NCBI GenBank assembly: GCA_017458285.1
Contig: JAFTFU010000004.1
Span: 52,561-116,560, forward strand
Direction of reading: 5' to 3'
Source of the DNA: Clostridia bacterium
GTDB lineage: Bacteria > Bacillota > Clostridia > TANB77 > CAG-508
Length of the DNA stretch: 64,000 bases
Of this stretch, positions 7,031-63,469 are shown piece by piece (position 1 is the first letter of the stretch; every line of letters starts with the position of its first letter). The translations under genes were made by a program, and so were the position numbers. The notes under the pieces are model-generated. The model made no database searches. It saw only the letters and a list, made by a program, of their open reading frames with translations, and was not told the origin of the DNA.

Positions 7031-7031
7031 T

Positions 7032-7065
7032 AAAGGGTGGAAGTAAATTAATACTTCCACCCTTT
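7032..7065. terminator. hairpin terminator
   Basis: Stem aaagggtggaagta / tacttccacccttt with loop aattaa. It sits between the end of gene 7065..7529 and the promoter cassette. Confidence 0.7.
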
Positions 7066-40691: not shown

Positions 40692-40752
40692 TTTTATTCC
40701 TCCTTTATTAATTATAAAATTCGGAATAATCCGATTACTATAAATTGTCCCG

Positions 40753-41883
40753 TCAATCAAAATTTTTTTCAGCTTTTACTATTTGTGGAATTATCATATT
40801 ACTTTTCATAATCCAAACCTTCTAACCTTTAAAAGGTTTATCTCCTAAAATTTCTTGCATAATACTTATATTATGAAGATTTGCACGTTCAATGGTAGAC
40901 CCATCTATTTCTACTGGATTAAAAATAGCAACAGGTGTTAATACTCCAGTTCTACCCATAGTCCATTCAATATCTCTTAATGTAGTCGGATAAGTTTCAT
41001 CATATAGCTTATACGCAATCGCATTTTTAAAGTGATGAGCAGTTTCACCTAAAGATTTACCAAATTTAATATCATCATATTTTACAACAATACCATCATA
41101 TGGAATATCTTCTGACATTTCAATAATATCTTGTAAAAGAAATTCATCAAATGTACTATGTTGAATCCAAGGAACAACTTGAAAACCTAGATGATTACAA
41201 GCATCTAATTTATTACTTAACCAATGATAATTATCAAATCCTTTAATAACATCCCAAACCATGAAAGTTAAATTGCGTTTAGCACATTCATTACTATCTA
41301 ATAATCTTATACTACCCGCTGCAAAATTGCGGGGATTTTTATAATCATTAGCGAATTTTTGAAAATCACTTTCTAAACAAACAATCTCTCCATCAACAAT
41401 TAATTCATCTTTATAATTAATTTTATTTGGAATAGATGGGATTACTAAAGCATTATGAGTAATATTTTCTCCAATGCGACCATTACCACGAGTCTCTGCG
41501 GATATCAATTTACCATTTAAATATCTTAAAGAACAAGTTAAACCATCACATTTAGTCATTATTAAAACAGTATGATTATGAACAAAATTATCAACTTCTA
41601 CAATATTTTTAGTTTTATCTAAAGATAACATAGGATGATTATGTTCTACTTTTTTTAATTCATTAACTACTTGATAAGAAATATTTTGAGTTGGAGAATG
41701 GGAAGGATAATAATGAGTCGCTTGTTCCCAGTTAAGCAGCTCAAAATACCACTTATCCCATTCTTCATCACTAATTTGTGGATTACCTTCATCATATGAT
41801 TTAGTCCATTCATTTAATTGAGTAGCAACTTTATCCATATCACTATGGCTCCAAATTGCATAATCATTTAATAATTCATTCAT
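40753..41883 (-). CDS. ligA: NAD-dependent DNA ligase, N-terminal fragment (adenylation plus OB domains)
   Basis: The track ORF extends through TAG 40822-40824 (..PFKG-Q-KVWIMKSNMIIPQIVKAEKNFD) to TGA 40753-40755. Contains KCDGLT (KxDG). Confidence 0.8.
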
Positions 41884-44225
41884 ACTTTTGTCACACTCAC
41901 AATTTGATTTCCCTTAATAACAATAGTTCCAACAGAAGTTTTATTAACTACTTTAGCTATTTCATTTGCTTTTATACATAAAGAACTCTTATTACCACAA
42001 ATTAAAATCATATCATTGTCAGATACTAGACTTGCGGCAACAACTTCTTCACCCTTCGCGCAAATATTACCACGTAAATTTCGACCTTGAATAGGCAATG
42101 CTTTCAATGCAAATCTACGTCCCATGCCATGCTTAGTAAATAGTGCTAAATCATCAGTCTCATCTCGTACGGGTAAAGCACAAATAACTTCATCTTCTGG
42201 CCGTAAATTGATTCCTTTAATACCCATAGATACTCTTCCTGTTGGAGTAAAATCAGCACCTTTTACTCTTAATCCATAACCATTTTTAGTAAGTAAAATA
42301 ATACTTTCTTGATTAGCTAAAAATACAGAAACTAATTCATCATTCTCATGGAAATTTAAAGCTTTAATACCACTCTTCTTTTTTACAGAGATATAATCAC
42401 TTAAAGCAGTTCTTTTTACATAACCTTGCTTTGTAACAAAAACAATATATTTATCATCTGTTTCTCTATAAATGGAATAAATAATAGTGGGTTCTTCTTG
42501 CGGTTCCATGCTAACCAAAGCACGAACAGGTATTCCTTTAGAAGTATTATTTCCCTCTGGAATATCATCAACAATTAAACGATACATATTTCCCTTATTA
42601 GTAAATATCATAAGGCTATCTACGGTATTAGTTCTTAAAACCATATTAGTTATATCATCTTGTGTTTTGATTCCTTTTCCTCCACGTCTTTGAGATCTAA
42701 ATGAAGTAGCTGGTATACGTTTAATATTACCGCCCTCTGTGAATACAACAACACATTTTTCTGGTGGAATTGCGGCAATCTTTTTTTCTTCATTGTTTTT
42801 AGGTTCTTCAATTTGAGTTAATTCAGTGCGTCTTTCATCACCATATTTATTTACAATATCATTTAAACGTAACAATAATTCATCTATTGGATTAGCTAAT
42901 ATTGCATTATAATGGTCAATATCATATTGTAGACCTGAACATTCCTCTTGCAACTCAATTTTTTCCAAATTTGCTAAACGACCTAATTTCATTTCTACAA
43001 TAGCATGAGCTTGGTCTTCTGTAAATTTATATTTATTTTGTAACTGAGTTTTTGCATCTGCAGCTGATTTAGACTGTTTGATTAAAGCGATGATATTATC
43101 AATATCTTCTAATGCTTTTAATAATCCTAAATTAATATCTAATTTGCGTTCAGCCTTTTTTAAATCAAACTCGGTTTCTCTTTTAATACATTCCGTGTTA
43201 TGTTCAACATAAATTTTACAACAATCTTTTAAATTTAATTCAGTTGGAGTTTTACTTACCAGACCAACCATATTATAAGAGAAAGATGTTTGTAAATCAG
43301 TTAATTTAAATAATTGAAAAATAATTTTATTTAAATTAGCATTTTTTTCACATTCAAGGACTAAGCGAAATCCCTTTTTACGAGTGCTTTCATTACGGAT
43401 ATGTTTAATTCCTTCAATGTCTCCATTATCACAAATTTTACCAATTTGTTCCATAAGTGCTTCCGTGGCAACTCCATAAGGAATTTCATAAAATACAATA
43501 TTATTATTTTCAATATTGTATTTACCTCTAATTTTAATACTACCTCGACCAGTTCGCATTATATTTGGAATATCATTTTTATTAATAATAATTCCACCAG
43601 TTGGAAAATCTGGGCCTGGTAACATAGGTTCTTTGCCATTTATATAATCATTAATAGCTTGCGCAACTTCTCTTAAATTATGAGGCGCCCAATTACAAGC
43701 CATTGCAACACCAATGCCAGTATTAGGATTACAAAGTAAATTAGGAAAATAAGATGGTAATGTTACAGGTTCATCTTTAGTTTCAGAATAATTAGGAACT
43801 GTATTAACAACTCCTTTTTTCATTCCAACTAACATACCATCTTCAACTAAAGTAGATAATCTTGCTTCAGTATAACGATAAGCTGCAGGGCCATCTCCAT
43901 CACGATTACCTTTTGAGCCATGAAAATCAATTAAAGGATAACGCATTACCCATTCTTGAGATAATCTAACTAATGCCCCATAAATACTTGAATCTCCATG
44001 AGGATGCCAATAAGCCATTGTGTTACCAACAATATTAGCACATTTAACATGAGGTTTTTTTGAACTGAAACCCTCATCATAAGAGCAATATAGAATACGT
44101 TTTGCCACTGGTTTTAATCCAGTTTTTGCATCTGGGATAGAACGGTCAGTATTTACAGCAACCGCATATTCTATAAAATTAGTACCAAGTTCAGTAATAA
44201 GATCAGTTAGAATCTCGTTTGCCAT
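41880..44225 (-). CDS. gyrA: type IIA topoisomerase subunit A (GyrA/ParC-like)
   Basis: ..RSIPDAKTGLKPVAKRILY..HPHGDSSIYGALVRLSQ..AAYRYTEARL. Intact 781 aa, no TAG. Confidence 0.85.
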   Translation of the reverse strand: MANEILTDLITELGTNFIEYAVAVNTDRSIPDAKTGLKPVAKRILYCSYDEGFSSKKPHVKCANIVGNTMAYWHPHGDSSIYGALVRLSQEWVMRYPLIDFHGSKGNRDGDGPAAYRYTEARLSTLVEDGMLVGMKKGVVNTVPNYSETKDEPVTLPSYFPNLLCNPNTGIGVAMACNWAPHNLREVAQAINDYINGKEPMLPGPDFPTGGIIINKNDIPNIMRTGRGSIKIRGKYNIENNNIVFYEIPYGVATEALMEQIGKICDNGDIEGIKHIRNESTRKKGFRLVLECEKNANLNKIIFQLFKLTDLQTSFSYNMVGLVSKTPTELNLKDCCKIYVEHNTECIKRETEFDLKKAERKLDINLGLLKALEDIDNIIALIKQSKSAADAKTQLQNKYKFTEDQAHAIVEMKLGRLANLEKIELQEECSGLQYDIDHYNAILANPIDELLLRLNDIVNKYGDERRTELTQIEEPKNNEEKKIAAIPPEKCVVVFTEGGNIKRIPATSFRSQRRGGKGIKTQDDITNMVLRTNTVDSLMIFTNKGNMYRLIVDDIPEGNNTSKGIPVRALVSMEPQEEPTIIYSIYRETDDKYIVFVTKQGYVKRTALSDYISVKKKSGIKALNFHENDELVSVFLANQESIILLTKNGYGLRVKGADFTPTGRVSMGIKGINLRPEDEVICALPVRDETDDLALFTKHGMGRRFALKALPIQGRNLRGNICAKGEEVVAASLVSDNDMILICGNKSSLCIKANEIAKVVNKTSVGTIVIKGNQIVSVTKV

Positions 44226-44421
44226 AAAGTGTTTTCATCCTTTCTTCAAAATCTTCTATTGCTTCTTCGACAAAATAAAGTTTTGTTAAAACTTCATCTT
44301 TAGCTTCATCGGTCATTTTTTCAGGATAATCTCCCCAATTTCTATATTGACCTTGTTTATATTGACCAATATAAAGGATATCGCCCCATTGATTTCTTTC
44401 AGTGAGTCTATTATTCAGCAT
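44203..44421 (-). CDS. hypothetical small protein between the topoisomerase genes
   Basis: ATG 44421 (MLNNRLTERNQW). Overlaps the gyrB stop and the gyrA start. Confidence 0.4.
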   Translation of the reverse strand: MLNNRLTERNQWGDILYIGQYKQGQYRNWGDYPEKMTDEAKDEVLTKLYFVEEAIEDFEERMKTLYGKRDSN

Positions 44422-44806
44422 TATATTGGGCCTCCTCGCTATGTTCTTTAATATAATTCTTACGAGGAACAACTGCTGTTCCCATCAAATCATCAAATAG
44501 TTTTCTTGCAGCTTCAGTATCGTTAATTGTTACTTGACGAATAATTCTTTGTTCAGGGTCTGTTAAAGTTTCTTCTGTTTCTTCAACATCCATTTCGCCA
44601 AGTCCCTTCATACGGTTTACTTTATAAGATTTACCACTATTGGCTTTACGATATTCTTCTAAAGCTTCATCATTCTTAATATATTTATATCCTTTATTTG
44701 TAGTAATTTTATACAAAGGTGGAACACCAGCATAAACAAAGCCATCTTCAATAAGCTGAGGACAAAAATTCCAAATAAATGTATAAAATAAGTTTTTGAT
44801 GTGAGC
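44411..44806 (-). CDS. gyrB: type IIA topoisomerase subunit B, exon 3
   Basis: AHIKNLFYTFIWNF..PPLYKI..RMKGLGEM. 132 codons. Confidence 0.85.
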   Translation of the reverse strand, partial: AHIKNLFYTFIWNFCPQLIEDGFVYAGVPPLYKITTNKGYKYIKNDEALEEYRKANSGKSYKVNRMKGLGEMDVEETEETLTDPEQRIIRQVTINDTEAARKLFDDLMGTAVVPRKNYIKEHSEEAQYNAE

Positions 44807-45790
44807 CATTTATTCTTATGTTTCCATAAGCACAGACTATATCTTACCTGCGGCCGCAGCCACAAGAACGCCCATTTCAAGTTGCGTGCTAATAGCAACC
44901 TTACTCCTCCGATACGAGGATAGTCGTTACAGGATTAGATGTTTTTCCAAGTTTGATATTGGACTACTCTTTTTATTGTATTTCGTGTGCATTTCCCTAA
45001 ATATAAAGTATATATTTCACTAATAGATTTATTTTCTTCTTCGGCTAATCTGCGAATTTCTTTAACATCGGATTTTGTTAATTTTGCTTTATTTTTACCT
45101 TTTCTTTCTACTTTAGAAGAAATATTTCTAATCATAGATGTATCAACATTCTACCAAGTGTTTCCTCTGTAGGCTTTGCAAAAAGCATCATAGCTAATTT
45201 CATCTGCATACATCTTATAAACGTCGGCAGGAGATATATTTTGAAGAAAAATCATTTCTCTAATATTTAAAACTTGTTCTTCATTTAATCTCGCTTTAAT
45301 ATTCTTTGAACCACTTGTATAATCAAGAGGAGTTTCTTCTGCTCGTAGAATATTATATCCTTTTTCTCTATTTAAAGCATCGTAATAATCTATCCAATAC
45401 TATTCTCTAATTAAAAGCTCTGCATCGGTCAAAGTATCACAATCTTCAATAATTTCAAAATCAAAATTTTCAAATCCATATTTTCGCAATGCACGAATAA
45501 TAGGTCTATTGTTGCCTTTATTTATCTCATATCTGTATTCACGCAATCTTTTTGCTAAATTTACAGATTTACCTATATATACTTTATCATTTAATTTATT
45601 AGTCCATTTATATATCGCTCTCATTTTAATCATCCTTCCCACGGGATTGCCATATCTAAAAAGACTTAGGTTTCCCCGTTAGCATATTTTTTCTACTTTA
45701 TATGAGTTCCAAGTGGAGCACATAAATAAAGTCTGTCCAAAAATATACCCCAGTGGCGAACTGGAAAAGGCGTAACAGGCACTTTTACAT
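44807..45790 (-). mobile_element. group I intron 2 in gyrB (splits the DADVDG|AHI motif)
   Basis: The exon ends ..GAUGGU. The intron ends ..GAAUAAAUG. Core elements UGCUAACGGGGAAACCU and GAUAUAGUCUGUGCUUAUGG are present, with a CUGCGGCCGCAG hairpin. The P1 pairing is weaker (about 3 bp). Confidence 0.75.
44935..45624 (-). CDS. intron-encoded GIY-YIG homing endonuclease
   Basis: MRAIYKWTNKLNDKVYIGKS. Track ORFs 45400 and 44935 join in frame through 2 sense TAG. Confidence 0.75.
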
Positions 45791-46036
45791 ACCATCAACA
45801 TCAGCATCGCTCATAATAATAATTTTTCCATAACGAATTTTATTTTTATCATAAGATACTTTCATAGTTTTAGGATCAATCTCTAAACCAAAAGCATCCA
45901 TCATGGTCATTATTTCTGCATTCTTTTGGATTTTATCAATACCAGCTTTGTGAGTATTAAGAATTTTACCACGCACAGGAAGCACTGCTTGAAATTCATT
46001 ATCTCTAGCAGTCTTCATATTACCAGAAGCACTGTC
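45791..46036 (-). CDS. gyrB: type IIA topoisomerase subunit B, exon 2 (TOPRIM)
   Basis: DSASGNMKTARD..LPVRGKILN..IIIMSDADVDG. 82 codons. Confidence 0.85.
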
Positions 46037-47120
46037 CATGTTTATCTTATATTTCTATAAGCACTGACTAACTCTTCACTCCGGTTTGTCAAACCATCAT
46101 CGTGTCCTCTATTTCCAATCACGTATCAATAGTGATTGTACTCTCCGTCTCACCGGAGATAGTCGATACAGCTTATTTTATATCTTTATAAGTTTGTCTC
46201 GTTATAGCATTATATACAGTACTCCAAGCTCTATCTGGAGCGTATTTTTGCCAAATCTATTTAGGACTTATTCCATTATCATAATCATATCTCATTTGTT
46301 TCACTTGTTCTTCGGTGAAACATTTTTTATTGTTTGCGGCTACTTCGGAAGAATTTGCTTTTGCATTGTGTGAATGCCAATATTTATTTTCTTCAGTATG
46401 ATACTCTGGATAAATATTTTTCCAAGTATCAAACCACCAAACCTTCTAAAGACCTCTTTTTGAAATTTTATCTTTATATTCTTCATAAACTATTTTGAAT
46501 GGAATATGAGCATTATAACATTCTCTAATATATTTTACATCTTCCTCATTTAATAATGCTCGACCATTTTTTGAACCAACCTAACTCCTGTTTGGGTTTT
46601 CGTCTCCGCCTAGAGTAGCATTATATCCATTGATATAAGAATTATAATAATTTATAAAGAACTTTTCCATCTAATCAAGAAGTTCTTTAGAATATTCTTC
46701 TGGAGATAATATTGCGATAATTTCATAATCAAAATTATCAAAACCATATTTTCTTACTGCTTGATGAAACTGACTATTATAATCATTTGCTTTATCATTA
46801 TAAACTGAAGATTTATGATTATATTGACGTCTTTCTATATCAACGCTCTATCCAATATAACATTTATGATTTATTTTATTTTCATATTTATAAATTCCTA
46901 TCATATCACTCTCTCCTTTCATTAGAATATAAGGGAGATACTGATATGATTTACTGGTTTTGTCCTAAAGATATAAAATCTTGCCACGGGATTGCCTTCG
47001 CCTAAACATATTTTGACATATATGTGTAACGGTCAGGTTTCCCCGTTAGCTTTACCTGCGGCCGCAGGTAAAACCCCGTTGATGAAGCGGTAAAAAGGAT
47101 TAGGGCAATAGTTTTCACTT
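46037..47120 (-). mobile_element. group I intron 1 in gyrB (splits the EG|DSA motif)
   Basis: The exon ..GAGGGU pairs with intron GCCCU. Core elements GCUAACGGGGAAACCUGACC, CCCGUGGCAA and GUUAGUCAGUGCUUAUAG are present, with a CUGCGGCCGCAG hairpin. The intron ends ..GAUAAACAUG. Confidence 0.8.
46173..46904 (-). CDS. intron-encoded GIY-YIG homing endonuclease
   Basis: MIGIYKYENKINHKCYIG(TAG)S. 244 codons; RBS GGAGAGAG. Confidence 0.8.
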
Positions 47121-48401
47121 ACCCTCAGTAATATAAATTTCACATTTCTTGCGGTCTTTACTAAAACAATCAGCTAATTTAGAATCAAAGCGTAAAGCTT
47201 TTTCTTTTTTAGCTTGTTTTTCACGAATTGAATCTCTAGCTTTTTGCGCAGCTTCTCTGGCTTTTTTAGCCATTTTAGCTTTATCCGCTATAGCTTTAAT
47301 TTCTTTTTCATTTTGAGTGAACCATATGCGCAATTCATCTGCAATTGCCGCAGTAAATGGTGTCATTTCAAGCTTAGTAATTCGAGTTTTAACTTGTGCA
47401 TCATATGCTACGTTAGGAGCCGTAATATTAAATACAATATATAATCCTTCTTGAATATCATCACCAGAAAGATTATCTTCATTATCTTTAAGCCATTTCT
47501 TTTCTTTGAAGAATTTATTAAATTCTCGTGTAAGCAATGCTTTAATTTGTGTAATATGAGGTCCAACAGAAGTTAATCCTGTATTTACATATGGGACCAT
47601 AGTCATTGAATAATTAGACGTATAAGTCATAACCATATCAATTTTATTTTTCCCATTTGTAAAATTTAAATTAAAACGATTATTAATTAATTCTTTATTT
47701 TTAACTGCTTCATCTACTAAATCATTCAAACCATCTGTAGAATAATAAGTAGTTTTTTCTCCATTATTATCTAATTCTATAGTTAGACCAGGACAAAGGG
47801 CTGCAACAGTTTTAAATAAAACTTTAATTTCATTTACATTTACTTCTGGATGTGTAAAGAATTCTTCACTTGGTTCCCATTCTACGCAAGTTCCATTTTC
47901 AAAATCTTTAGCTGTAAAAATTTCTCGTTTATTAAATTCACCTTCAACAAAATAACAACGCTCTACTTGCCAATTACGATAAGTATAAACATCTAACCAA
48001 TGAGAAAGAAAAGTTGTTATTTTAGAACCAATACCAAAAGAACCTAAAGAAGTGCCTTCATAAGTACCATCTTCTCTATATTTTCCTGAAGTGTTTAATA
48101 CACTGAAAGCTGCTTCAAGAATTGTTTTTCCATCTTCTCTAAAACTATTAGGAATAAAACCTTGCCCATAATCTCGTACACGACACATTTTACCATTTAT
48201 TGCAACTTCAATTTTATCTCCATGACCTAATCTAAATTCATCTACTGCATTAGAAAAAATTTCTACTAATAATTGAGTTGCATATGTCGTATCTCCTGCA
48301 TATACGCCCGGCTTAAGTCTTGTAAATTCTCGTGGGTCTAAGCTTTCTATTGATGTTTCAGTATAAAGTGTTTTATCTATTTCTTTTTCTTTATTCAACA
48401 T
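47121..48401 (-). CDS. gyrB: type IIA topoisomerase subunit B, exon 1 (GHKL ATPase plus transducer)
   Basis: ..EIFSNAVDE..DYGQGF..GSFGIGSK.., ending ..CEIYITEG. No TAG. The start is ATG 48401 or GTG 48422. Confidence 0.8.
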
Positions 48402-50676: not shown

Positions 50677-51006
50677 TTAGATACCATAATTAATATCTAT
50701 ATCTTCATTCGATGGAGCATCCCCATTATCAATATCGGCATTTAATTCTGCCATTACTGTTTCAAATTTAATACCGTTCTTTGTATTTTCTTTTGTTGAT
50801 TTATTATAATAAAAACACTAGCTTACACCATATGCACCCCAAGGTAAGCTAATCATAGCTGTTAACCAAGGTAAAGAACCAGTATAATCTTTCCAAACAC
50901 AAAATGCTGCTAGCGCTAAAAAAGCAAGTGTTACTATCCATATGAGAATAGACTCTTGGATTAATAACACTTTACTAAATGCTTTTTTAGATTTTTTCTT
51001 CGCCAT
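50677..51006 (-). CDS. putative holin
   Basis: Overlaps the endolysin 3' end. Two TM segments (ILIWIVTLAFLALAAFCVW and WLTAMISLPWGAYGV). One sense TAG; TAA 50677-50679. Confidence 0.6.
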
Positions 51007-51988
51007 TTAAAATACGATAAAGAACAGTAACAAACTCTTCACGAGTTAATGGTTTACGATACATTTTACGTCCTTGGGTGTCTCCTTTAATATATTTTTT
51101 AGATTCAGCCCATTCACGAGCTTTTGCAGAATAAGATTCAACATGCTCATCTGCAGCTAAATCTTCTAAATAAGCATTCATCAATTCTTTAAACTTATCA
51201 AGAGTCATATCTTCATCCTCCTCAATTGGTTTAATATATTTTTTAGTATAATTTAAATGTATCCATCCTTCTCCAGTATATCCCCATCCAGTAGAAGAAG
51301 TTTTAGAAATATGAACGATAGTATCATTATAATATTTTTTAATAATATTATAATTAGTTCCTGCGCCTTTGCGGCAATTTAAATAACCATCATCAGATTT
51401 AATAATAACATCGTAATTAACTTCTGTTATTTTATCCTCTACTTTTGGAGTTGTGCCTGGATTTTTTATTACCCAGTAATATTTAACTTGTTTTTTAAAT
51501 AAAGAGTAATCTCCTTGAGTTCTAGCTAATTTAGTAGATGCAGGGTCATTAATAAAAATTGTATTACCAGAGATTTTCCATACAACAATATAGTGTCCAC
51601 TTCTGGTCCAATTTCCTTTACCCATACAAGCTATTACTAAATCACCATTATCTACCGCATTTTTTGCCTGAGTATGATAAGATGTAGTAGAATTGCCATA
51701 AATGTTAGCACTGTTTAATTGCGTGCATTTTAATCCATATCTTTTAAAAGCCGGAACAAAGTATGAATAATATGTTCCAGAATTTAATGCTTTATAACCA
51801 TTTTTTAAAGCCCAAGCACATTCTGTCTTTGGTGTAACATTTTTATCAGCCCACGTTGCTAAAATCATAGCAGCACTGCTGGGGCCGCAACCTGAACCGC
51901 CAATAGTGCTGCTTTCACCTTTTACTGCATAAGGTATGTTTTTCCAACGAGGGTCTGTTTGAAAATATGAAACTGGTTGTTGTGCCAT
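50987..51988 (-). CDS. endolysin: papain-like (C39/CHAP-type) cysteine peptidase plus SH3b-like wall-binding domain
   Basis: GGSGCGPSSAAM (Cys) and SGHYIVVW (His). SH3-like YLNCRKGAGTNYNIIKKY..GWIHLNY. Confidence 0.75.
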   Translation of the reverse strand: MAQQPVSYFQTDPRWKNIPYAVKGESSTIGGSGCGPSSAAMILATWADKNVTPKTECAWALKNGYKALNSGTYYSYFVPAFKRYGLKCTQLNSANIYGNSTTSYHTQAKNAVDNGDLVIACMGKGNWTRSGHYIVVWKISGNTIFINDPASTKLARTQGDYSLFKKQVKYYWVIKNPGTTPKVEDKITEVNYDVIIKSDDGYLNCRKGAGTNYNIIKKYYNDTIVHISKTSSTGWGYTGEGWIHLNYTKKYIKPIEEDEDMTLDKFKELMNAYLEDLAADEHVESYSAKAREWAESKKYIKGDTQGRKMYRKPLTREEFVTVLYRILNGEEKI

Positions 51989-54051: not shown

Positions 54052-54080
54052 TTGACACTAGAAAAAATTTTTTTTATAAT
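54052..54080 (+). promoter_or_regulatory. consensus sigma70/sigmaA-type promoter TTGACA-17 nt-TATAAT
   Basis: TTGACA 54052-54057 and TATAAT 75-80 of the same kb (54075-54080), exact 17-nt spacer, 85 nt upstream of ATG 54166. Confidence 0.7.
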
Positions 54081-54165: not shown

Positions 54166-55374
54166 ATGATATTTCATGATTGTACACAATGTACGAATGA
54201 ATGTCGGTTGCAAGCATTTGAAGCTGTCAGAGATGAATATTCATCTATTGACAGCTTCAAGTATAATCCGCAAATTCATTCTAAACCAAAAAGTATTTTA
54301 TTAGGATTAACTAATAAGTGTAATTTAAATTGTAACTATTGTTTTGTACATTAGAATCCTTTAGATATGACTTTTGATGTAGCAGATAAAGGAATTTAGT
54401 GGGTATTATCTAATTGTCAAGAAGATGAAAAGCCAACTGTTGGATTTTTTGGAGGAGAGCCTTTATTAAAATTTAATGATATAATTGTTCCTATTGTATA
54501 GAAATATAAAAATAAAGTTAATTTCTCTATTACTACTAATGGGATTCTATTAAATGAAGATATTATTGATTTTCTTCATGATTATGAAATTTATCCTTTA
54601 TTATCTTTTGATGGAGTTCCAGAAGTATAGAATAAACAACGCTCTAATTCATTTAATCAAGTATTGAAAAATATTCCTTATCTTTTATTACGTTTTCCTG
54701 AAATAACTATGCGGGCTACAGTTACAAAAGAATCTATTCCTTATTTATATGATACTGTATTAATGGCAGATGAATTAGGATTTAAACATATTTTCTTTTG
54801 TGAAAATGCTTATGAAGATTGGGATAAAGAGATTGAAAAAGAGTTAGAAGAATAGTTTAAAAAAATAGGCTTATTTATTTATAAAAGATTAAGAAATAAA
54901 GAATCTGTTTTAAAAATTGATCCTTTTAATCGTATTTTTGAAAGTATTGATAAAGGATAGCATAATGAATTATATTTTGATAATAGAATAATACGATGTG
55001 GGTTAGGAACTACTTCCTGCGCAATTACTCCAGAAGGAAATATAATTCCTTGTCAAGAAAAAATTTCTAATATAACGCATATAATTGGAAATATTTATAC
55101 AGGCATTGATTATAAAAAACATAAAGAATTTTTAATAGATTACTTTAATAAAGTAAATAATTTATCTTGTGATAAAGGGTGTTCGGATAAAAATAAATTA
55201 ATTTGTTTATCTCATTTATGCCCTTCTCGTTTAGAAGATTTAAATTATTAGTTTTCTACAGCTTCGTGCGCTTTTTCTCGTATGGCAACAAAAATTTGTT
55301 TAAGGCTATTCTTTTTATGTAGTTATAGCATAGAACCTAATATTAGAGAATATTGGGGAGGTGGATTAAATTGA
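54166..55374 (+). CDS. radical SAM enzyme with C-terminal SPASM-type Cys clusters (anSME / sactisynthase-like), enzyme A
   Basis: LGLTNKCNLNCNYCF (CxxxCxxC); GGEPLL; RCGLGTTSCAITPEGNIIPC; CDKGC..CLSHLC. 403 codons. 8 sense TAG, all checked in frame. TGA at 55372-55374. Confidence 0.8.
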
Positions 55375-56546
55375 ATCCGCGTTTACGACCTACAAAAGTA
55401 AGAAGTATTATTTTTACTGAAGCTTGTCCTTTAGATTGTTTATATTGTAATTTTAAGCAAAGTAATAATTTTGGTACTAGTAAAGGTTTAACAAAAGAGC
55501 AATTATTTCATTTAGTAGAAACTTTTGATAAATTAGATGATGTAAATACTATAGATACAAGGATATTATTTTCGGGCGGCGAACCCTTGTTGCGTTGGCC
55601 ATGGATAAAAGAAATTATAGAAAAATATTAGACAAGATTTTCTTATTCTTTTAATACTTCTGGATATTTATTTACAGAAGAAATGTTGGAATTTTTATCT
55701 CATTATTAGGTAGATTTTACTTTATCTATAGATGGTAATGAAGCGCTAACTAATTATCTGCGACCAGTAGTAAACAACCCTTATAAAGTAGGATATATGA
55801 AAGCTTTGAAAAAGATAGTTCCCACTTTTTTATATTATTTTCCTACTACTCCATTTAGATTAATTGTTAATGCAAGATATGTTGATTTATTATATCAAAT
55901 ATATCAATTTGCTAATGAATTAGGCTTCCCATATTTTACTTTTTTAATAGATTTTGGTCATAGAGATTTTGATAAACCTAATGAAAAACCTAAAAAAAAT
56001 TATTTAAAGTGGGAAGAAAAACATACTGAAATTTTAGAAGAGCAATTAATGTTAATTGTTAATAACATTTTAAGTTCTTATAAGCAAGGAATTAAAAGAA
56101 CACAAGTTTTAGAATTTAATTAGATTCTTAAATATTTATTTAATGAAATTAAATTTACTCCAGAAAATATTCATTGTTAGTTATTTAATAAAAGAAGTTT
56201 AACTACTTTATATAATAATGATTTAGAAGGATATTGTCTTAAACGAGAATTTCCTGATATTGAAAAATTAAAAATTGCTGTAATGGATGAATATAATTCT
56301 TTAAATCATACTTGTTATTTAGATGAAAAATGTCCTATGTTTGATTATTGTTGTATTCATTGTTGTATTCAAAGTGGTTATTATAAATCAAAACGATTTT
56401 TTGATTTTGATACTATTGAATGTTTAGTAATGAAAAGTTGTTATAAAGCTATTTTAAAATTATTATCTGTTGGAAATGATGAATGTAAAGATGTTTTTTT
56501 ATATCAATAGTACATACTTGATATGATAGAACAAGGGGGTGCTTAA
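55371..56546 (+). CDS. second radical SAM enzyme with C-terminal Cys cluster, enzyme B
   Basis: TTG start after GGAGGTGGA, overlapping the upstream stop (TTGA). FTEACPLDCLYCNF; SGGEPLL; C-terminal CYLDEKCPMFDYCCIHCC. 5 sense TAG; TAA 56544-56546. Confidence 0.75.
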
Positions 56547-56547
56547 A

Positions 56548-57192
56548 ATGTCTATTCCTAATTCACCTTCTTGCGATAGTTGTTATAATGGAGAAAGTTG
56601 TTCAGATAGAAATAGCGGCGGATGTTCTGGGTGTAATGTTTGTGATTATAGCTGTTAGACAATTTGTGAAGTTGGTTATTAGTCAATAAAAAATCATCCA
56701 AATGTTGGAGATTTTCCTTGGAAAGAAGTTAAACCAAAGATAGATTTTATAAAAGATGTTATTACAGCAGTTAATTGGAATTCTTTAATAAAAAAGCTAG
56801 AAGAAGCTGAAAAAGTAGGAGAAAAATCTTCTCAAGGTAGTAAAGGTTCTGCAACTTAGGTATAGCCTAATGGAGTTTTTTATGCTAATAATTATAATGA
56901 AATTTAGCAAAAATTAAGTGGTTTTGAAGATGCTGCTTTTGATCCTGTAGTAAAAAATGATTTAATTACAGCTGCACGAATTAATGCTATTAGAAATGCT
57001 TATTTAAATGCTAAATTTAAAAACAGTGTATGCGATGTATGTAATAGTGGAGAAAACTCTTGTAGTTGTAATTGCGCTTGTTCTTGTGATTGTGCGTGTG
57101 ATTGCCCTTGCCCGTGTTCTTGTGATTGTAGCTGTGACTGTAACTGTAGTTGTAATTGTAGCTGTGGGCCTTCCTGTGGAGATAATTCCTAA
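56548..57192 (+). CDS. 214-aa Cys-rich protein (N-terminal Cys cluster, helical middle, C-terminal alternating Cys-X tail); candidate radical SAM substrate
   Basis: ATG follows 1 nt after the enzyme B stop; RBS GGGGGTG. MSIPNSPSCDSCYNGESCSDRNSGGCSGCNVCDYSC(TAG)TIC ... CDVCNSGENSCSCNCACSCDCACDCPCPCSCDCSCDCNCSCNCSCGPSCGDNS. 5 sense TAG; TAA 57190-57192. Confidence 0.75.
57061..57165 (+). repeat. (TGY-NNN)n hexanucleotide-periodic tract encoding 18 Cys alternating with S/N/A/D/P
   Basis: 35 consecutive codons: C S C N C A C S C D C A C D C P C P C S C D C S C D C N C S C N C S C. Confidence 0.9.
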
Positions 57193-57194
57193 TT

Positions 57195-57287
57195 AAAATT
57201 TTGAAAAGCGATTTTGGTTTTGGATTGCGGATGTACTGACCCTGGCCGGCCGCAGCAGATATTTTTTTCGCATGCATGTGTGTGAGC
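57195..57287 (+). repeat. GC-rich structured element, copy B
   Basis: AAAATTTTGAAAAGCGATTTT..ATTGCGGATGT..CTGGCCGGCCGCAGCAG..TTCGCATGCATGTGTGTGAGC. Collinear with copy A at 26247-26344. Its 3' end merges into the operon terminator. Confidence 0.6.
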
Positions 57288-57316
57288 CCCTTATATACGT
57301 TATGTATATAGGGGGC
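57286..57316 (+). terminator. rho-independent terminator of the radical SAM cassette
   Basis: 12-bp stem gccccttatata / tatatagggggc with a 7-nt loop, followed by TTTAATTT. Confidence 0.75.
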
Positions 57317-57321
57317 TTTAA

Positions 57322-57373
57322 TTTGACTCTTTTTTTTTTTTTGTTACTATAAAAGAAAAAAGGAGTTGAAAAT
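57322..57373 (+). promoter_or_regulatory. conserved promoter/5'-leader cassette (copy 2) TTTGACTC-T13-GTTACTATAAAAGAAAAAAGGAGTTGAAAAT-ATG
   Basis: Nearly identical to the reverse complement of 6972-7030. Confidence 0.45.
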
Positions 57374-57811
57374 ATGGCGACAGCATTTTTAGGTTTACCA
57401 ACTGTTACAACTGGTACTTTAATTAAAGCATCTGATTGGAATAGTATGGTAAATAAAATAGATGCGGCTATAAAGAAAATTATGGTTGTTGAACATTTAC
57501 ATGAATTTGGAATTATAGAAATGAATAATACTTCTGAGAGTAAGACAATATCTTTACCATCGGCGACCGTAAAAGGATATTTTAAACTTGCAACTGCTCA
57601 CCCTCCAGATAGCAATGCTGTGATAGATATTCCTTTAAGGCAAGCAATTTCTAGTGTATCAATACCTACTACGAAGACTTTAGGTTGTACAGCAGCAATA
57701 ACATATCCATCAACTACTTCTTGTACTATATCAGCATCTCGAAACGGCGGCACAGGAAGTTATACTAGCTTGTATTATTGGGTATATATATATGAAGTCA
57801 TGTCAGTATAA
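57374..57811 (+). CDS. hypothetical small protein (N-terminal LIKASDWNSMVNKI motif shared with the Cys-rich protein and 6426..6971)
   Basis: Intact 145-aa ORF with no TAG. A bidirectional terminator lies downstream. Confidence 0.75.
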   Translation: MATAFLGLPTVTTGTLIKASDWNSMVNKIDAAIKKIMVVEHLHEFGIIEMNNTSESKTISLPSATVKGYFKLATAHPPDSNAVIDIPLRQAISSVSIPTTKTLGCTAAITYPSTTSCTISASRNGGTGSYTSLYYWVYIYEVMSV

Positions 57812-57941: not shown

Positions 57942-58712
57942 TTAACCATAATAGCCTCCATCGGGAGGGTCTCTGCGATATTGCCAATCTCTAGGACAAG
58001 TAACATTCATCCAACTGGGTCCGGAGCATTTTCCTTCATGAACACAACGAGCGCACTGCCTTCTTTTATATTCATCAACTTTTAACCAAGTTTCATAAGG
58101 CTTAATTTTAGTAACATCAGGTTCAACGCAAATATCATGTGGAGTAGTTCCTTCTTTAATCAAATGCGTATCTGTCCATTTAGTTTTCATCTCTTGGATA
58201 ATATCATTTAAATTACAAGGATAACAATCGTGAGCATCCATTGCAGTATTATACATCCAAAGATTATTCTCAAAGAAATGTTCTTTTTGATGAGTATGTC
58301 CAAAAAGATTAAGAGTCATTTGTTTTAAAAACTTATCATTATTCCCAGTGAGAGAAGGAAAATGACTCATATAAAAATGGTATCCCTGATGCTTTAGATA
58401 AATAGAATTTTTTGTTTCTACTACATTAGGAAGTTTAGAAAAAGCTTCCCATCTTTTATCTGTACAATGATTACCTCTAACTAAATGTAATTTTCCATTT
58501 ATTCTACTAATTAGATTTAAACCTTGTTCTAAACTTTTTTCTCCCCCTAAAAGAAGATCTCCTAATACATACAAATCATCTTCTGGTTTAACCAATTTAT
58601 TATTTCTTTTAATAATTTCTTCGTTCATTTCATTAACAGAAGAGAAATTTCGTGCTTTCCAAATAAATTCTCTATTGTGGCAAAAATGCCAATCACTTGT
58701 TATAAAAATCAT
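57942..58712 (-). CDS. calcineurin-like metallophosphoesterase with Cys-rich C-terminus
   Basis: SDWHFCHN, LGDLLLGG, GNHC and GHTH motifs. No TAG. Confidence 0.75.
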   Translation of the reverse strand: MIFITSDWHFCHNREFIWKARNFSSVNEMNEEIIKRNNKLVKPEDDLYVLGDLLLGGEKSLEQGLNLISRINGKLHLVRGNHCTDKRWEAFSKLPNVVETKNSIYLKHQGYHFYMSHFPSLTGNNDKFLKQMTLNLFGHTHQKEHFFENNLWMYNTAMDAHDCYPCNLNDIIQEMKTKWTDTHLIKEGTTPHDICVEPDVTKIKPYETWLKVDEYKRRQCARCVHEGKCSGPSWMNVTCPRDWQYRRDPPDGGYYG

Positions 58713-62053: not shown

Positions 62054-63469
62054 TTACATTTCAGAAAGGATATCTTCGTCCATGCTTTCAATATCTTTTT
62101 CTGCCAAAGAATCTATGGCAACTCCGCTTAAACACTTGAAGTTAAAATTCTTATGTTTATAAGCGCAAAACTTAGGCTTATCAACAATTCTTACAACTAC
62201 GCCTTCTCTAATATGAGTTTTACCAATGGGGTCAGGACCATCATAAAATTCTTCGGCTTTCGCTTTAATCCAATCTCCAGCGGTACGATAATTATCTACA
62301 TTTACAGAAAAATCAGTGCGGTCATAATCAGAAGGAATAATACCTCTCCAAAGGATAGGAACAGATTCTACTCCCATCTGCTCACACCGATACCGCATAT
62401 AATCAGGTGGATACTCAACAACGTGACCATCTTCAGTAGTTTTAGTCATACGATATACAAAAAGACGAGACTGCGGCAGTTCTACTTCAAGAGCAAAATC
62501 ACCTTCATCATCCCTACCATAAAGTATTTTCTTACCATCGGGAGCACAACCATAAGAAAAAGTGGTAGTAGATCCGTACTGCTTAGAAAAAGCTTTATCA
62601 CTTACCTTACTATTGGATACCTGCGGCATAATAGGAGTTCCATTATTAGTAAATCCGCAAACTTCATAATAAACAGTTTCACCCTGGAATAGTTTACCTT
62701 GAAAAGCAAGCGCGTGCGGCTCACGGAAACTATTATCACCATAGTATCCGCCCTTTTCAAAATCATTAAGAACGGTTCTACGAGTACCAGTTACATAACC
62801 ATATTCATAGATAGGAGAACCCTCTCGCCGCAGAATGCGGTCCAGCAAAGTACGCTTATAGCCGGAAAGCTTGGGTAAATAACCAGTTCTTTGAGAAGTA
62901 CCATGTACCTTAAGAGTAATTTCAATTAAATCTCCTTGCTTAAAATCTCCAAGATGATAAGTAAGCTGTTCAGTATCAACATGCTGAGCAAAAAGAGGAG
63001 CAATATCTACAGTGGTCTTACGACCTTTATTACCCTGCGTTCCAGAATGTCTATTAGAACCTCTAGGAATATACTTACAACAAATATCATGACCGTTAAT
63101 TACATCAATATGATCGCCAATTTCAAATTTAGCTTCACCGGTATAAGCAAGAGATTCCAGAGGCATAAACAAACCTTCAGAACGCTCACCGCGTAACTTC
63201 ATTGCGCGAATATTACGCTTGTTAGGGTCAAGATAACCTCCAATATTATTACCATTTTCATCCTTTTTGCGCACGAGATTATTATAATCACAATACTCCT
63301 GGCTTAACTGAAGGTCAGTTGGGAAGAAAATACCAAAATCACCAAGCTGAACATCAAGTCCAACAATTACATTTTGTCCAAAAATAACCGCACACTGAAG
63401 TCTATCCGCATTAGAATGAGGATGAAGTTCATTAATTTTTACTACGTAACCACAATGCTCTGCGCTCAT
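62054..63469 (-). CDS. ATP-dependent RNA ligase (DRB0094/Rnl-like) with N-terminal OB / tRNA-binding-like domain
   Basis: N-terminus VVKINELHPHSNADRLQCAVIFG. Nucleotidyltransferase motif I ITLKVHGTS. Intact 471 aa, no TAG. Confidence 0.65.
   Translation of the reverse strand: MSAEHCGYVVKINELHPHSNADRLQCAVIFGQNVIVGLDVQLGDFGIFFPTDLQLSQEYCDYNNLVRKKDENGNNIGGYLDPNKRNIRAMKLRGERSEGLFMPLESLAYTGEAKFEIGDHIDVINGHDICCKYIPRGSNRHSGTQGNKGRKTTVDIAPLFAQHVDTEQLTYHLGDFKQGDLIEITLKVHGTSQRTGYLPKLSGYKRTLLDRILRREGSPIYEYGYVTGTRRTVLNDFEKGGYYGDNSFREPHALAFQGKLFQGETVYYEVCGFTNNGTPIMPQVSNSKVSDKAFSKQYGSTTTFSYGCAPDGKKILYGRDDEGDFALEVELPQSRLFVYRMTKTTEDGHVVEYPPDYMRYRCEQMGVESVPILWRGIIPSDYDRTDFSVNVDNYRTAGDWIKAKAEEFYDGPDPIGKTHIREGVVVRIVDKPKFCAYKHKNFNFKCLSGVAIDSLAEKDIESMDEDILSEM

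What the first reader, a model, noticed from the sequence alone, without database searches (positions are those of the whole stretch)
57061..57165. Perfectly alternating Cys-X tract (18 Cys in 35 residues) at the C-terminus of the cassette protein
The tract consists of 35 consecutive codons of the form TGY-NNN, encoding CSCNCACSCDCACDCPCPCSCDCSCDCNCSCNCSC. It is preceded by CDVC..SC and followed by GPSC. In an extended strand, alternating Cys residues would all lie on one face. That is suggestive of a metal or cluster ladder (metallothionein-like) or of an iterative crosslinking substrate for the adjacent radical SAM enzymes. The interspersed residues vary (S/N/A/D/P) and Cys uses both TGT and TGC, so this is not a recent slippage expansion of one unit. 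The periodicity also generates spurious ORFs in the other frames (track ORFs 57008..57196 + and 57017..57277 -).
Basis: seen in the sequence. Interest (0 to 1): 0.75.

Follow-up and report, generated by a model that had tools for sequence, protein, structure and literature searches.

The report
Phage Cys-X tail, radical-SAM substrate
The alternating-cysteine tract is the real, conserved tail of a small protein from a large gut phage that reads TAG as glutamine, it always sits beside radical SAM enzymes that most likely cross-link it, and neither the protein family nor the chemistry has been described.

Summary
Bases 57061-57165 encode (Cys-X)17-Cys with 18 Cys, and no such pattern occurs in 100 shuffles. 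The tract ends a 214-aa protein (56548-57192) that is visible only when TAG is read as Gln. The window is a TAG-recoded, 30% GC phage.

The protein has a confidently predicted ~125-residue helical central domain with no match in PDB or Pfam. Two Cys-dense tails predicted with low confidence (probably disordered) flank it. All 40 close homologues keep an invariant VCDxCN motif followed by 10-23 Cys with small polar spacers. The tract is under selection as protein. More distant relatives keep the domain but use CxxC or CxxxC tails.

In 16 of 16 loci examined, an orthologue of the first radical SAM/SPASM enzyme is encoded upstream in the same gene cluster. That enzyme is closest to thioether-forming maturases (PapB, CteB) but scores below every family cut-off. 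It lacks their peptide-recognition domain, and the tract lacks PapB's conserved Asp/Glu acceptors.

Best reading: the tail is an iteratively cross-linked radical SAM substrate on a protein-sized scaffold. The exact chemistry and the benefit to the phage are unknown. A purely metallothionein-like role is less likely but not excluded. I rate it a new variant of a known kind, with moderately high interest.

The parts
54052..54080 (+). Promoter-like site, TTGACA-17 nt-TATAAT (12 of 12 matches), about 85 nt upstream of rSAM-1
   Evidence: sequence. This is a consensus match only. The overall number of promoter-like sites in the region is not above chance, but this is the only perfect one.
54166..55374 (+). 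rSAM-1: a 402-aa radical SAM/SPASM enzyme with 7 in-frame TAG. It has CxxxCxxC at C52/C56/C59 and seven conserved SPASM-type Cys (C278, C296, C335, C339, C347, C352, C368). It has no N-terminal RRE domain.
   Evidence: Pfam Radical_SAM 1.9e-15. Best NCBIfam hit is PapB ranthipeptide maturase at 174.7 bits, below the cut-off of 340. Best PDB hit is CteB 5wgg at 1.9e-25, aligned from CteB residue 93. Orthologues are present in all 16 loci.
55353..56546 (+). rSAM-2: a ~397-aa second radical SAM enzyme with a SPASM-like C-terminus. It has CxxxCxxC at C25/C29/C32 and seven conserved Cys (C275, C295, C321, C327, C333, C338, C357). The start codon is uncertain: the first canonical start is TTG at 55353, which overlaps the end of rSAM-1.
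   Evidence: Pfam Radical_SAM 3.3e-14. Best NCBIfam hits are HxsB at 62.6 bits and PapB at 62.5 bits, far below their cut-offs. It is 28% identical to rSAM-1. Cys are conserved in 6 of 6 orthologues. It is present in all 9 CxC-type loci.
56548..57192 (+). Cys-rich protein: 214 aa, 29 Cys, 5 in-frame TAG read as Gln. Its ATG lies 1 nt after the rSAM-2 stop codon, with AAGGGGG upstream.
   Evidence: There are 39 homologues. P0001 is 97% identical over the full length.
56548..56667 (+). N-terminal Cys-rich tail, residues 1-40, with 8 Cys spaced by 2-7 residues. C9, C12, C32 and C40 are invariant, and so are N30 and Q37.
   Evidence: Alignment. AlphaFold2 pLDDT <50 for residues 1-39.
56668..57027 (+). 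Central folded domain, about residues 41-160. It has three helices, each opening with an (I/L)TAxx(W/Y/I)N motif. W77, N78, G91, Y116, N117, F126 and F157 are conserved.
   Evidence: pLDDT about 90-95, helices 74-88, 113-123 and 142-154. No PDB fold match, no PDB sequence match with the profile, no Pfam match.
57028..57045 (+). Invariant VCDxCN motif at the junction of the domain and the tail
   Evidence: V161, C162, D163, C165 and N166 are invariant in 33 of 33 sequences. A related C(D/N)xC(N) anchor is present in distant relatives.
57061..57165 (+). The finding itself: a perfectly alternating (Cys-X)17-Cys tract with 18 Cys. Spacers are S, N, A, D and P.
57166..57192 (+). C-terminal GPSCGDNS and the TAA stop codon
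57284..57342 (+). Terminator-like 15-bp hairpin (57284-57318) followed by a 13-T run (57330-57342). It closes the three-gene unit.
   Evidence: Present in both the minimum-free-energy and centroid folds. Not called by the consensus terminator scan.

Best explanation
The tract is the C-terminal tail of a small phage protein made of a folded central domain with a Cys-dense, flexible tail at each end. The protein is co-transcribed with two radical SAM/SPASM enzymes and is their substrate.

Proposed mechanism, by analogy with PapB and CteB. A Cys thiolate of the tail binds an auxiliary Fe-S cluster of the enzyme. The 5'-deoxyadenosyl radical removes a hydrogen from a carbon of a nearby spacer residue. 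A C-S (thioether) bond then forms. The reaction repeats along the tail and turns a floppy poly-Cys segment into a densely bridged, protease- and redox-resistant segment.

Because the enzymes lack a peptide-recognition (RRE) domain, the folded central domain probably serves as the docking handle. The product probably stays a protein and is not cut into a small peptide.

Shown here: the tract is coding and under selection, the family and its architecture exist, the partnership with rSAM-1 holds in every locus examined, and the enzyme falls in the SPASM maturase class. Inferred: that the tails are what gets modified, that the modification is thioether formation, the docking role of the domain, and the fate of the product. 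Its role for the phage is unknown.
For: (1) Coding and selection. The TGY-NNN ladder has zero matches in shuffles. All 40 family sequences (39 homologues plus the window protein) keep VCDxCN plus 10-23 Cys. Close relatives differ by synonymous TGT/TGC changes, AGY/TCN serine switches and whole-codon indels.

(2) Operon structure. There is a perfect promoter match, a 1-nt gap between rSAM-2 and the Cys protein, and a hairpin plus T-run after the gene.

(3) Partnership. Nine CxC-type loci have rSAM-1, rSAM-2 and the Cys protein in that order: L001-L005 and L010-L012, and L013. In five CxxC- or CxxxC-type loci (L006-L009, L016) the rSAM-1 orthologue is directly upstream at 32-34% identity, and likewise in L014 at 31%. 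In L015 it lies in the same cluster, two rSAM genes upstream.

(4) Enzyme class. Every rSAM-1 orthologue that was scanned (the window's, L006's and L007's) has PapB as its top curated hit at 150-175 bits, followed by SCIFF, QhpD and CcpM maturases. The closest solved structure is CteB. The CxxxCxxC motif and seven SPASM cysteines are conserved in both enzymes.

(5) Substrate-like tails. Both tails have pLDDT <50 while the domain is at ~90-95. Spacers are almost only S, N, P, G, D, A and T.

(6) Chemistry precedent. PapB cross-links Cys-Xn-Asp for n = 0-6, including in-line and nested rings (PMC9413430). The substrate Cys/SeCys contacts an auxiliary cluster before C-S bond formation (PMC10177961).

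(7) Protein-sized precedent. In the HXS system two rSAM enzymes mature a repeat-bearing protein (PMC13128918). In P0072/P0205 the CxC tract is internal and followed by 125 more residues, which argues against a cleaved C-terminal core peptide.
Against: There is no biochemical evidence of any modification. rSAM-1 is below the curated cut-off of every named maturase family.

PapB needs a carboxylate acceptor, but Asp is only about 7% of tract spacers, and members such as P0010 and P0016 have no Asp or Glu in the tract. The conserved chemistry must therefore differ from PapB's, and it might not be thioether formation at all.

The Cys spacing varies (1, 2 or 3 residues) across the superfamily. That is unusual for a site-specific maturase and fits a composition-driven property such as metal binding equally well.

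The role of rSAM-2 is unknown, and the number of rSAM genes ranges from 1 to 4 between lineages.
Confidence: 0.55

Rival explanations
1. Classical RiPP. The central domain is only a long leader or recognition element, as in Nif11 or nitrile-hydratase-type leaders. After modification the Cys-rich tail or tails are cut off and released at lysis as a small ranthipeptide-like or sactipeptide-like antimicrobial or signalling peptide.
For: The enzymes belong to the RiPP-maturase group, and the rSAM_nif11 maturase is among the top hits at 108-128 bits. ClpP-like protease genes follow the substrate gene in L001 and L016. A Peptidase_C39-like protein lies nearby in the window and in L004. The close clade has a GG motif in the N-terminal tail.
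Against: No protease or transporter is conserved with the cassette. The 'leader' would sit in the middle with cores on both sides. The domain is better conserved and more confidently folded than expected for a disposable leader. In P0072/P0205 the tract is internal. In other lineages the C39-like protein's position is taken by SLT and amidase lysins, so it is probably the endolysin.
Confidence: 0.2
2. Metal or Fe-S binding tail that is not covalently modified. The Cys-dense tails bind Zn, Cu or Fe-S clusters as metallothioneins do. The protein serves the neighbouring Fe-S enzymes or the phage as a metal or cluster store, or as a redox buffer.
For: CxC and CxxC motifs with small polar spacers and almost no bulky, aromatic or basic residues resemble metallothionein composition (the metallothionein comparison rests on my own knowledge). 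Tolerance of several Cys spacings fits a composition-driven function. The invariant C40, C162 and C165 could form a metal site closing the domain, since strands 39-41 and 162-164 are both predicted (this is an inference).
Against: No metallothionein family hit at E<=1 in 33 members. The strict linkage to one specific orthologous SPASM maturase across the whole superfamily (16 of 16 loci) is unexplained by this model. Other phage Fe-S enzymes such as NrdG have no such partner.
Confidence: 0.13
3. Radical SAM substrate with other chemistry. The enzymes convert or decorate residues instead of forming thioethers. Examples are Cys or Ser to formylglycine as in anaerobic sulfatase maturases, epimerisation, C-methylation, or alpha-carbon (sactionine) links.
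For: rSAM-1 also matches the anaerobic sulfatase maturase at 62.6 bits and its structure 4k37. It matches the sactisynthase RumMC at 74 bits. Ser is by far the commonest spacer. The carboxylate acceptor required by PapB is missing.
Against: These matches are weaker than those to thioether-forming ranthipeptide enzymes (PapB 175, SCIFF 113, QhpD 105.5 bits). The one conserved element of the tails is Cys, which is the thioether donor.
Confidence: 0.1
4. Non-coding simple-sequence DNA or a spurious ORF.
For: With the standard genetic code the frame is interrupted by TAG codons, and ORFs appear in other frames.
Against: TAG is a sense codon throughout the window. At an invariant Gln column, TAG alternates with CAA among homologues. 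Forty family sequences keep the frame, with synonymous substitutions.
Confidence: 0.01

Closest known systems
Ranthipeptide systems: PapA/PapB (freyrasin) and SCIFF CteA/CteB
   Same: A radical SAM/SPASM enzyme sits next to a Cys-rich ribosomal substrate. rSAM-1's best curated hit is PapB and its best solved relative is CteB. It has the CxxxCxxC motif and seven SPASM cysteines. PapB can make many in-line or nested rings with 0-6 residues between donor and acceptor (PMC9413430).
   Different: Scores are far below the family cut-offs (175 vs 340, and 113 vs 425). The enzyme has no RRE domain. The substrate is a 214-aa protein with a folded domain and two tails, not a ~45-50-aa peptide. There is no conserved Cys-X3-Asp/Glu or Cys...Thr motif. 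The tract has period 2. The system is encoded by large TAG-recoded phages, not by Firmicutes chromosomes.
CXXX-repeat radical SAM target system (TIGR04114/TIGR04117 targets, TIGR04115 maturase, Pfam PF27846)
   Same: Tandem short Cys repeats with small spacers sit next to a SPASM maturase. Distant homologues of the window protein that share its central domain carry CxxxC repeats. P0237 has a precomputed PF27846 hit. P0138 and P0156 give weak TIGR04114 hits, and P0156 and P0160 weak TIGR04117 hits. L016 occupies the same genomic slot as L001's CxC cassette.
   Different: The window protein does not hit these models at E<=0.1. rSAM-1 scores 89.7 against a cut-off of 350 for TIGR04115. The repeat period is 2, not 4. 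The product and function of the CXXX system are, to my knowledge, also uncharacterised.
HXS antiphage system (HxsA with HxsB, HxsC and HxsD)
   Same: Two paired radical SAM enzymes mature a protein-sized effector that combines a folded domain with short tandem repeats (PMC13128918). rSAM-2's top curated hit is HxsB.
   Different: The HxsB score is 62.6 against a cut-off of 370. The repeats are Cys-X, not His-X-Ser. There is no peptidoglycan-binding domain and no signal peptide is evident. No HxsD-like gene was identified in the cassette, though none was specifically searched for. It is phage-encoded, not a bacterial defence island. PADLOC gives only generic viperin-core hits.
QhpC/QhpD (quinohemoprotein amine dehydrogenase gamma subunit and its maturase)
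   Same: A SPASM enzyme installs several Cys-to-Asp/Glu thioethers inside a small protein that stays a protein (my own knowledge). rSAM-1 hits the QhpD model at 105.5 bits.
   Different: The score is below the cut-off of 453. There is no dehydrogenase context. The acceptors are not conserved.
Metallothioneins
   Same: Very high Cys content, CxC and CxxC motifs, small polar spacers (my own knowledge of metallothioneins).
   Different: No family hit. A folded non-Cys central domain is present. There is an obligatory enzyme partner. The tract is perfectly periodic.

Membership tests
PapB-family ranthipeptide maturase (NF047865), applied to rSAM-1 | HMM score at or above the curated cut-off of 340 bits | tested here: not met
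   174.7 bits. Distant orthologues score 151 and 160 bits.
PapB-family ranthipeptide maturase (NF047865), applied to rSAM-1 | Radical SAM CxxxCxxC motif plus a SPASM domain with about 7 auxiliary-cluster cysteines | tested here: met
   C52/C56/C59, and C278, C296, C335, C339, C347, C352 and C368 are conserved across orthologues. The Pfam SPASM hit is weak, 16.9 bits against a cut-off of 21.5.
PapB-family ranthipeptide maturase (NF047865), applied to rSAM-1 | N-terminal RiPP recognition element (RRE) that binds a leader peptide | tested here: not met
   The alignment to CteB starts at CteB residue 93 and query residue 38. Only about 40 residues precede the radical SAM core.
Ranthipeptide precursor (PapA type) | Repeated Cys-X3-Asp/Glu motifs, meaning a carboxylate acceptor for each Cys | tested here: not met
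   Asp is about 7% of tract spacers and Glu about 0.3%. P0010 and P0016 have none in the tract. The requirement itself is from PMC9413430 and PMC10739248.
Ranthipeptide or sactipeptide (product level) | Enzyme-installed Cys sulfur-to-carbon thioether bonds | not testable with these tools
   Needs mass spectrometry and NMR of the co-expressed product.
SCIFF system (TIGR03974 maturase, six-Cys-in-45 precursor) | Maturase score at or above 425 bits, and a ~45-aa precursor with six Cys | tested here: not met
   112.9 bits. The substrate is 214 aa with 29 Cys and has no NCBIfam hit at E<=0.1.
CXXX-repeat rSAM target system (TIGR04114, TIGR04115, PF27846) | The target matches the Cys-Xaa-Xaa-Xaa repeat model, and the maturase scores at or above 350 bits | tested here: not met
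   The window protein has no hit. rSAM-1 scores 89.7 bits. Only distant CxxxC-type homologues hit: P0237 by precomputed PF27846; P0138 and P0156 at 15-17 bits on TIGR04114 against a cut-off of 20, and P0156 and P0160 at 15-17 bits on TIGR04117 against a cut-off of 50. PF27846 is not in the local Pfam copy.
HXS system (HxsA/B/C/D) | HxsB and HxsC equivalogs, plus an effector with His-Xaa-Ser repeats | tested here: not met
   rSAM-2 scores 62.6 bits against a cut-off of 370 for HxsB. There are no HxS repeats in the protein.
Metallothionein | Match to a metallothionein family model | tested here: not met
   None of 33 members hits a metallothionein Pfam family at E<=1.
Metallothionein | Stoichiometric metal-thiolate cluster binding | not testable with these tools
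   Needs ICP-MS and UV-vis on purified protein.
Lanthipeptide or thiazole/oxazole-modified peptide | A dehydratase/cyclase (LanB/C/M/KC/L) or a YcaO cyclodehydratase in the gene cluster | tested here: not met
   The conserved cassette contains only radical SAM genes and the substrate.
TAG-to-Gln recoded phage (genetic code 15) | In-frame TAG in conserved genes, aligned with Gln codons in homologues | tested here: met
   Coding capacity nearly doubles when TAG is read as sense. The invariant Q37 column is TAG in the window and in L005, and CAA in five other loci. No suppressor tRNA lies within this window.

The most novel reading that the evidence does not exclude
Large gut phages encode a previously undescribed class of post-translationally modified protein. 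A novel folded domain carries poly-(Cys-X) tails, and dedicated RRE-less radical SAM/SPASM enzymes convert those tails into a contiguous ladder of C-S bridges using non-carboxylate acceptors (Ser, Asn, Gly or backbone carbons). That chemistry is distinct from PapB, CteB and QhpD. The matured protein acts as a late-expressed phage effector or virion component, for example a rigid, redox-proof rod, or an exclusion or anti-defence factor. Its production is gated by TAG suppression.
Probability: 0.3. Interest if true: 0.85.

Novelty: new variant of a known kind. Interest (0 to 1): 0.66.

Why it matters
Radical SAM/SPASM maturases acting on Cys-rich ribosomal substrates are a known kind of system. 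This one differs in four ways.

1. It is carried by large, uncultured, TAG-recoded gut phages and not by bacteria.
2. Its substrate is a protein with a new, confidently folded domain and tails at both ends.
3. The tails can be perfect period-2 Cys repeats that lack the acceptor residues required by the closest characterised enzyme.
4. The enzymes lack the usual peptide-recognition domain.

If the tails are cross-linked, this would be the densest thioether array known and probably new C-S bond chemistry. That would interest RiPP enzymologists and peptide engineers, because PapB is already used as a stapling tool. For phage biology it would be a rare case of a phage carrying its own radical SAM protein-maturation module. 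It also offers a clean test of the idea that stop-codon recoding gates late proteins: in three lineages the enzymes are TAG-free while the substrate needs TAG read-through.

The family is small (140 cluster representatives among 1.84 billion) and carries no name in any source I could query. All of this is directly testable by heterologous co-expression.

Tried and rejected
- DNA similarity of the cassette to annotated phages: no match.
- tblastn of the central domain, P0205 and P0228 against 50,697 phage records: no match.
- Pfam, NCBIfam, PHROGs and PADLOC scans of the Cys protein: no family.
- Foldseek of the AlphaFold2 model against PDB: nothing. Against BFVD: only two weak hits at E~0.01 to uncharacterised phage proteins, which I could not retrieve.
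- Profile of the family against PDB sequences: nothing at E<=1.
- The downstream 145-aa ORF (57374-57811) as part of the system: rejected. It lies beyond the terminator-like hairpin, is absent at that position in L004, and shares only a 17-residue motif with the central domain at hhalign probability 12.6%.
- A link between rSAM-2 and the CxC tail type: not upheld. The CxxC-type locus L015 has up to four rSAM domains, while L014 and L016 have one.
- ClpP as a conserved leader protease: rejected. It is absent from the window and from most loci.
- PF27846 could not be scored locally because it is not in the Pfam copy provided.
P0001, which is 97% identical, was used instead.
- Eight literature searches found no description of this family.
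Full report
**1. The observation**

Bases 57061-57165 are 17 TGY-NNN units followed by a final TGY codon. They translate to CSCNCACSCDCACDCPCPCSCDCSCDCNCSCNCSC, which is 18 Cys in 35 residues. The tract is preceded by VCDVCN-SGENS and followed by GPSCGDNS and a TAA stop.

An eight-unit TGYNNN pattern matches only as one continuous ladder spanning exactly these coordinates. It does not occur in any of 100 dinucleotide-preserving shuffles. Cys is 1.7% of residues in the other genes of the window.

Tandem Repeats Finder sees only weak 6/12/18-nt periodicity at 62-86% match. Cys codon use in the tail from VCDVCN to the stop (17 TGT: 4 TGC) equals the genome-wide ratio (255: 71). This is not a young slippage array.

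**2. The genetic code**

With the standard code the frame is cut by TAG codons, and the neighbouring radical SAM genes look fragmented. Reading TAG as sense nearly doubles the stop-to-stop coding capacity of the window, from 12,853 to 22,859 residues in ORFs of at least 100 aa. The longest ORF rises from 784 to 1,991 aa.

In the Cys protein, the invariant Gln column (Q37) is TAG in the window and in L005. It is CAA in five other loci. So TAG encodes Gln.

The window is 30% GC and phage-like. It encodes PhoH, a C39-like lysin, gyrase, NAD-ligase and many GIY-YIG endonucleases. It contains no tRNA.

**3. The gene and its unit**

The protein is 214 aa (56548-57192), with 29 Cys and five TAG codons at residues 37, 45, 104, 106 and 120. 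Two radical SAM genes precede it on the same strand:
- rSAM-1 at 54166-55374, 402 aa.
- rSAM-2 at about 55353-56546, about 397 aa.

Its ATG lies 1 nt after the rSAM-2 stop codon. A perfect TTGACA-17-TATAAT match lies at 54052-54080. A 15-bp hairpin with a T-run lies at 57284-57342. The trio points the opposite way to the genes on either side.

The 145-aa ORF at 57374-57811 is outside this unit and is absent at the same place in the closest relative, L004.

**4. The family**

A search of 5.8 billion proteins gave 39 homologues of 138-287 aa. None has a Pfam domain or an informative name. All share the same layout:
- an N-terminal Cys-rich segment;
- a central region with three (I/L)TAxx(W/Y/I)N helix starts;
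- an invariant VCDxCN motif;
- a C-terminal Cys tract.

After VCDxCN there are 10-23 Cys. Spacers are S (305), N (107), P (103), G (72), D (50), A (43) and T (43), with almost nothing else. The longest perfectly alternating run ranges from 6 to 42 residues. One subclade mixes in CxxC units.

Close relatives differ in the tract by synonymous TGT/TGC changes, AGY/TCN serine switches and whole-codon indels. The tract is a selected protein feature.

**5. Structure**

AlphaFold2 was run on the 33-sequence alignment, with P0001 (97% identical) as the target. Residues of about 40-165 have pLDDT around 90-95, with helices at 74-88, 113-123 and 142-154. Residues 1-39 and 166-214, the two Cys-rich tails, have pLDDT <50 and no secondary structure.

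Nothing in the PDB matches by fold or by sequence profile, and nothing in Pfam matches. BFVD gives only two weak hits to uncharacterised phage proteins. The 'one-faced beta-strand ladder' picture is not supported by the prediction.

**6. A wider superfamily**

An exhaustive profile search of 1.84 billion cluster representatives found only 140 proteins at E<=0.001. The more distant ones keep the central domain and a C(D/N)xC(N) anchor, but flank the domain with other Cys repeats:
- CxxC runs, as in P0084, P0097 and P0100.
- CxxxC runs, as in P0138, P0156 and P0160.

The dominant spacer length in the C-terminal tail is 1 in 62 proteins, 2 in 58 and 3 in 19. In P0072/P0205 the CxC tract is internal and followed by 125 more residues.

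No cluster carries a name. The longest contigs are 100-254 kb, which is large-phage size and not chromosome size. None is in the curated phage collection.

**7. The enzyme partnership**

Nine CxC-type loci have rSAM-1, rSAM-2 and the Cys protein in that order:
- L001-L005 and L010-L012.
- L013.

Seven loci have CxxC- or CxxxC-type relatives. In L006-L009 and L016 an rSAM-1 orthologue at 32-34% identity is directly upstream. In L014 one at 31% identity is directly upstream. L015 has four rSAM domains, including an rSAM-1 orthologue two genes upstream. That makes 16 of 16 loci with an rSAM-1-type gene upstream in the same cluster.

L016 sits in the same genomic slot as L001 (DUF2828, an unknown gene, the cassette, ClpP, ligase). 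It carries one rSAM and a CxxxC-type protein with a precomputed PF27846 (Cxxx-repeat rSAM target) hit. The repeat type has therefore been exchanged on a conserved scaffold.

**8. What the enzymes are**

The three rSAM-1-type proteins scanned (the window's, L006's and L007's) all have the PapB ranthipeptide maturase as top NCBIfam hit, at 150-175 bits against a cut-off of 340. Next come the nif11-type, SCIFF, QhpD, CcpM and CXXX-repeat maturases. The sactisynthase and sulfatase-maturase models score lower.

The closest solved structure is CteB (5wgg, E 1.9e-25). The alignment begins at CteB residue 93, so the RRE domain is missing.

Both enzymes keep CxxxCxxC and seven C-terminal cysteines in a SPASM-like pattern. 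rSAM-2 is a 28%-identical paralogue whose best hits, HxsB and PapB at about 62 bits, cover only the core. PADLOC shows only generic viperin-core similarity.

**9. Mechanism**

PapB forms Cys-to-Asp/Glu thioethers, tolerates 0-6 intervening residues, and makes in-line and nested rings (PMC9413430). It needs a carboxylate or an isostere (PMC10739248). In PapB and Tte1186 the substrate Cys/SeCys contacts an auxiliary-cluster iron before the C-S bond forms (PMC10177961).

The most economical reading of the evidence has three parts. The flexible Cys-dense tails are threaded into rSAM-1, and in this clade also rSAM-2, and are cross-linked repeatedly. The folded central domain replaces the leader/RRE interaction. 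The product remains a protein, given the internal tract in P0072/P0205 and the absence of any conserved protease or exporter.

Asp is only about 7% of the spacers and is missing from some tracts. The acceptor, and possibly the bond type, must therefore differ from PapB's. That step is inference.

The metallothionein-like alternative fits the composition and the tolerance of several spacings. It does not explain the invariant partnership, and it has no family support.

**10. Timing**

In L001, L002/L003 and L005 both enzyme genes contain no TAG, while the substrate gene has 1, 5 and 5. In the window and in L004 all three genes contain TAG. In L011 and L012 the substrate gene has none.

Stop-codon recoding has been proposed to regulate late and lytic genes (bioRxiv 10.1101/2021.08.26.457843, title and abstract). 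This pattern suggests that the substrate is made only once TAG suppression is active. That is a hint, not a demonstration.

**11. Comparison with known systems, and verdict**

The system works like a ranthipeptide-type or QhpD-type maturation. In architecture it resembles the HXS system, where two rSAM enzymes mature a repeat-bearing protein (PMC13128918). It fails the membership tests for the PapB, SCIFF, CXXX-repeat, HXS and metallothionein families.

Eight literature searches found no description of it.

I classify it as a new variant of a known kind: a phage-borne radical SAM/SPASM system acting on a protein-sized substrate with poly-(Cys-X) tails. The chemistry and the biological role are unresolved. 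Interest is moderately high.

Noticed in passing
window 1-64000: The whole window uses TAG as a sense codon for Gln. Genes split into a TAG-free class (GyrA 41880-44225, the GyrB pieces, the C39-like lysin 50987-51988, Metallophos 57942-58712, and 62054-63469) and a TAG-containing class (up to 4.9 TAG per 100 codons). No suppressor tRNA lies in the window.
   Followed up: partly
L001, L002/L003 and L005, compared with window 54166-57192: In three lineages both rSAM genes have no TAG, while the Cys-rich substrate gene has 1, 5 and 5. In the window and in L004 all three genes carry TAG. This suggests that production of the substrate, but not of the enzymes, is gated by TAG suppression in some lineages.
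   Followed up: partly
window 39272-48401, minus strand: GyrB is in three pieces (47115-48401, 45785-46039, 44411-44809) and the NAD-dependent DNA ligase is in two (40753-41883, 39272-40207). Each is interrupted by GIY-YIG endonuclease ORFs (46173-47009, 44935-45633, 40089-40775). These may be split genes or intron- or intein-type insertions.
   Followed up: partly
window 57228-57262: A GC-rich island (…CCCTGGCCGGCCGCAGCAG…) in a 30% GC genome, lying between the stop codon of the Cys protein and the terminator-like hairpin. Its origin and function are unknown.
   Followed up: no
window 57374-57811, plus strand: A 145-aa ORF with no TAG and no family hit. It is absent at this position in the closest relative, L004. 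It shares only a 17-residue 'ASDWNSMVNKIDAA' motif with helix 1 of the central domain (hhalign probability 12.6%).
   Followed up: partly
window 50677-51988, minus strand: A Peptidase_C39-like protein (47.9 bits for C39_2 and 27.9 bits for C39) sits next to a small transmembrane, holin-like ORF. Other lineages have SLT and Amidase_2 lysins at this position. C39 peptidases cleave after Gly-Gly, and the close clade of the Cys protein has a conserved 'xGGC' motif in its N-terminal tail. A possible processing link was not tested.
   Followed up: no
L013 10001-11194 (P0205/P0072; 254-kb Hadza gut phage contig): In this relative the CxC tract is internal and followed by a 125-residue Gly/Ser/Thr-rich extension. 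The tract can therefore act as a linker between two parts of a protein.
   Followed up: no
L015 2785-7001; L005 10681-11526; L012 about 6599-7429: The number of radical SAM genes in the cassette varies. L015 has four rSAM domains ahead of the Cys-repeat protein, including a 715-aa double-domain ORF. L005 and L012 have an extra 281-aa rSAM gene after it.
   Followed up: partly
L014 10715-13036: A 773-aa SLH-domain (cell-wall-binding) protein is encoded directly after the CxxC-type relative in a 176-kb phage contig. This hints at a Gram-positive or S-layer-bearing host.
   Followed up: no
window 54166-54280 (rSAM-1 residues 1-37): A short N-terminal extension carries a CxxCxxxC motif (C6, C9, C13). 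C6 and C9 are conserved in about half of the orthologues, which may indicate a small extra metal site in place of an RRE domain.
   Followed up: no
window 728-5977, plus strand: A 1,749-aa ORF with 20 in-frame TAG codons (1,991 aa from stop to stop). It is probably a large structural or fibre protein and was not analysed.
   Followed up: no
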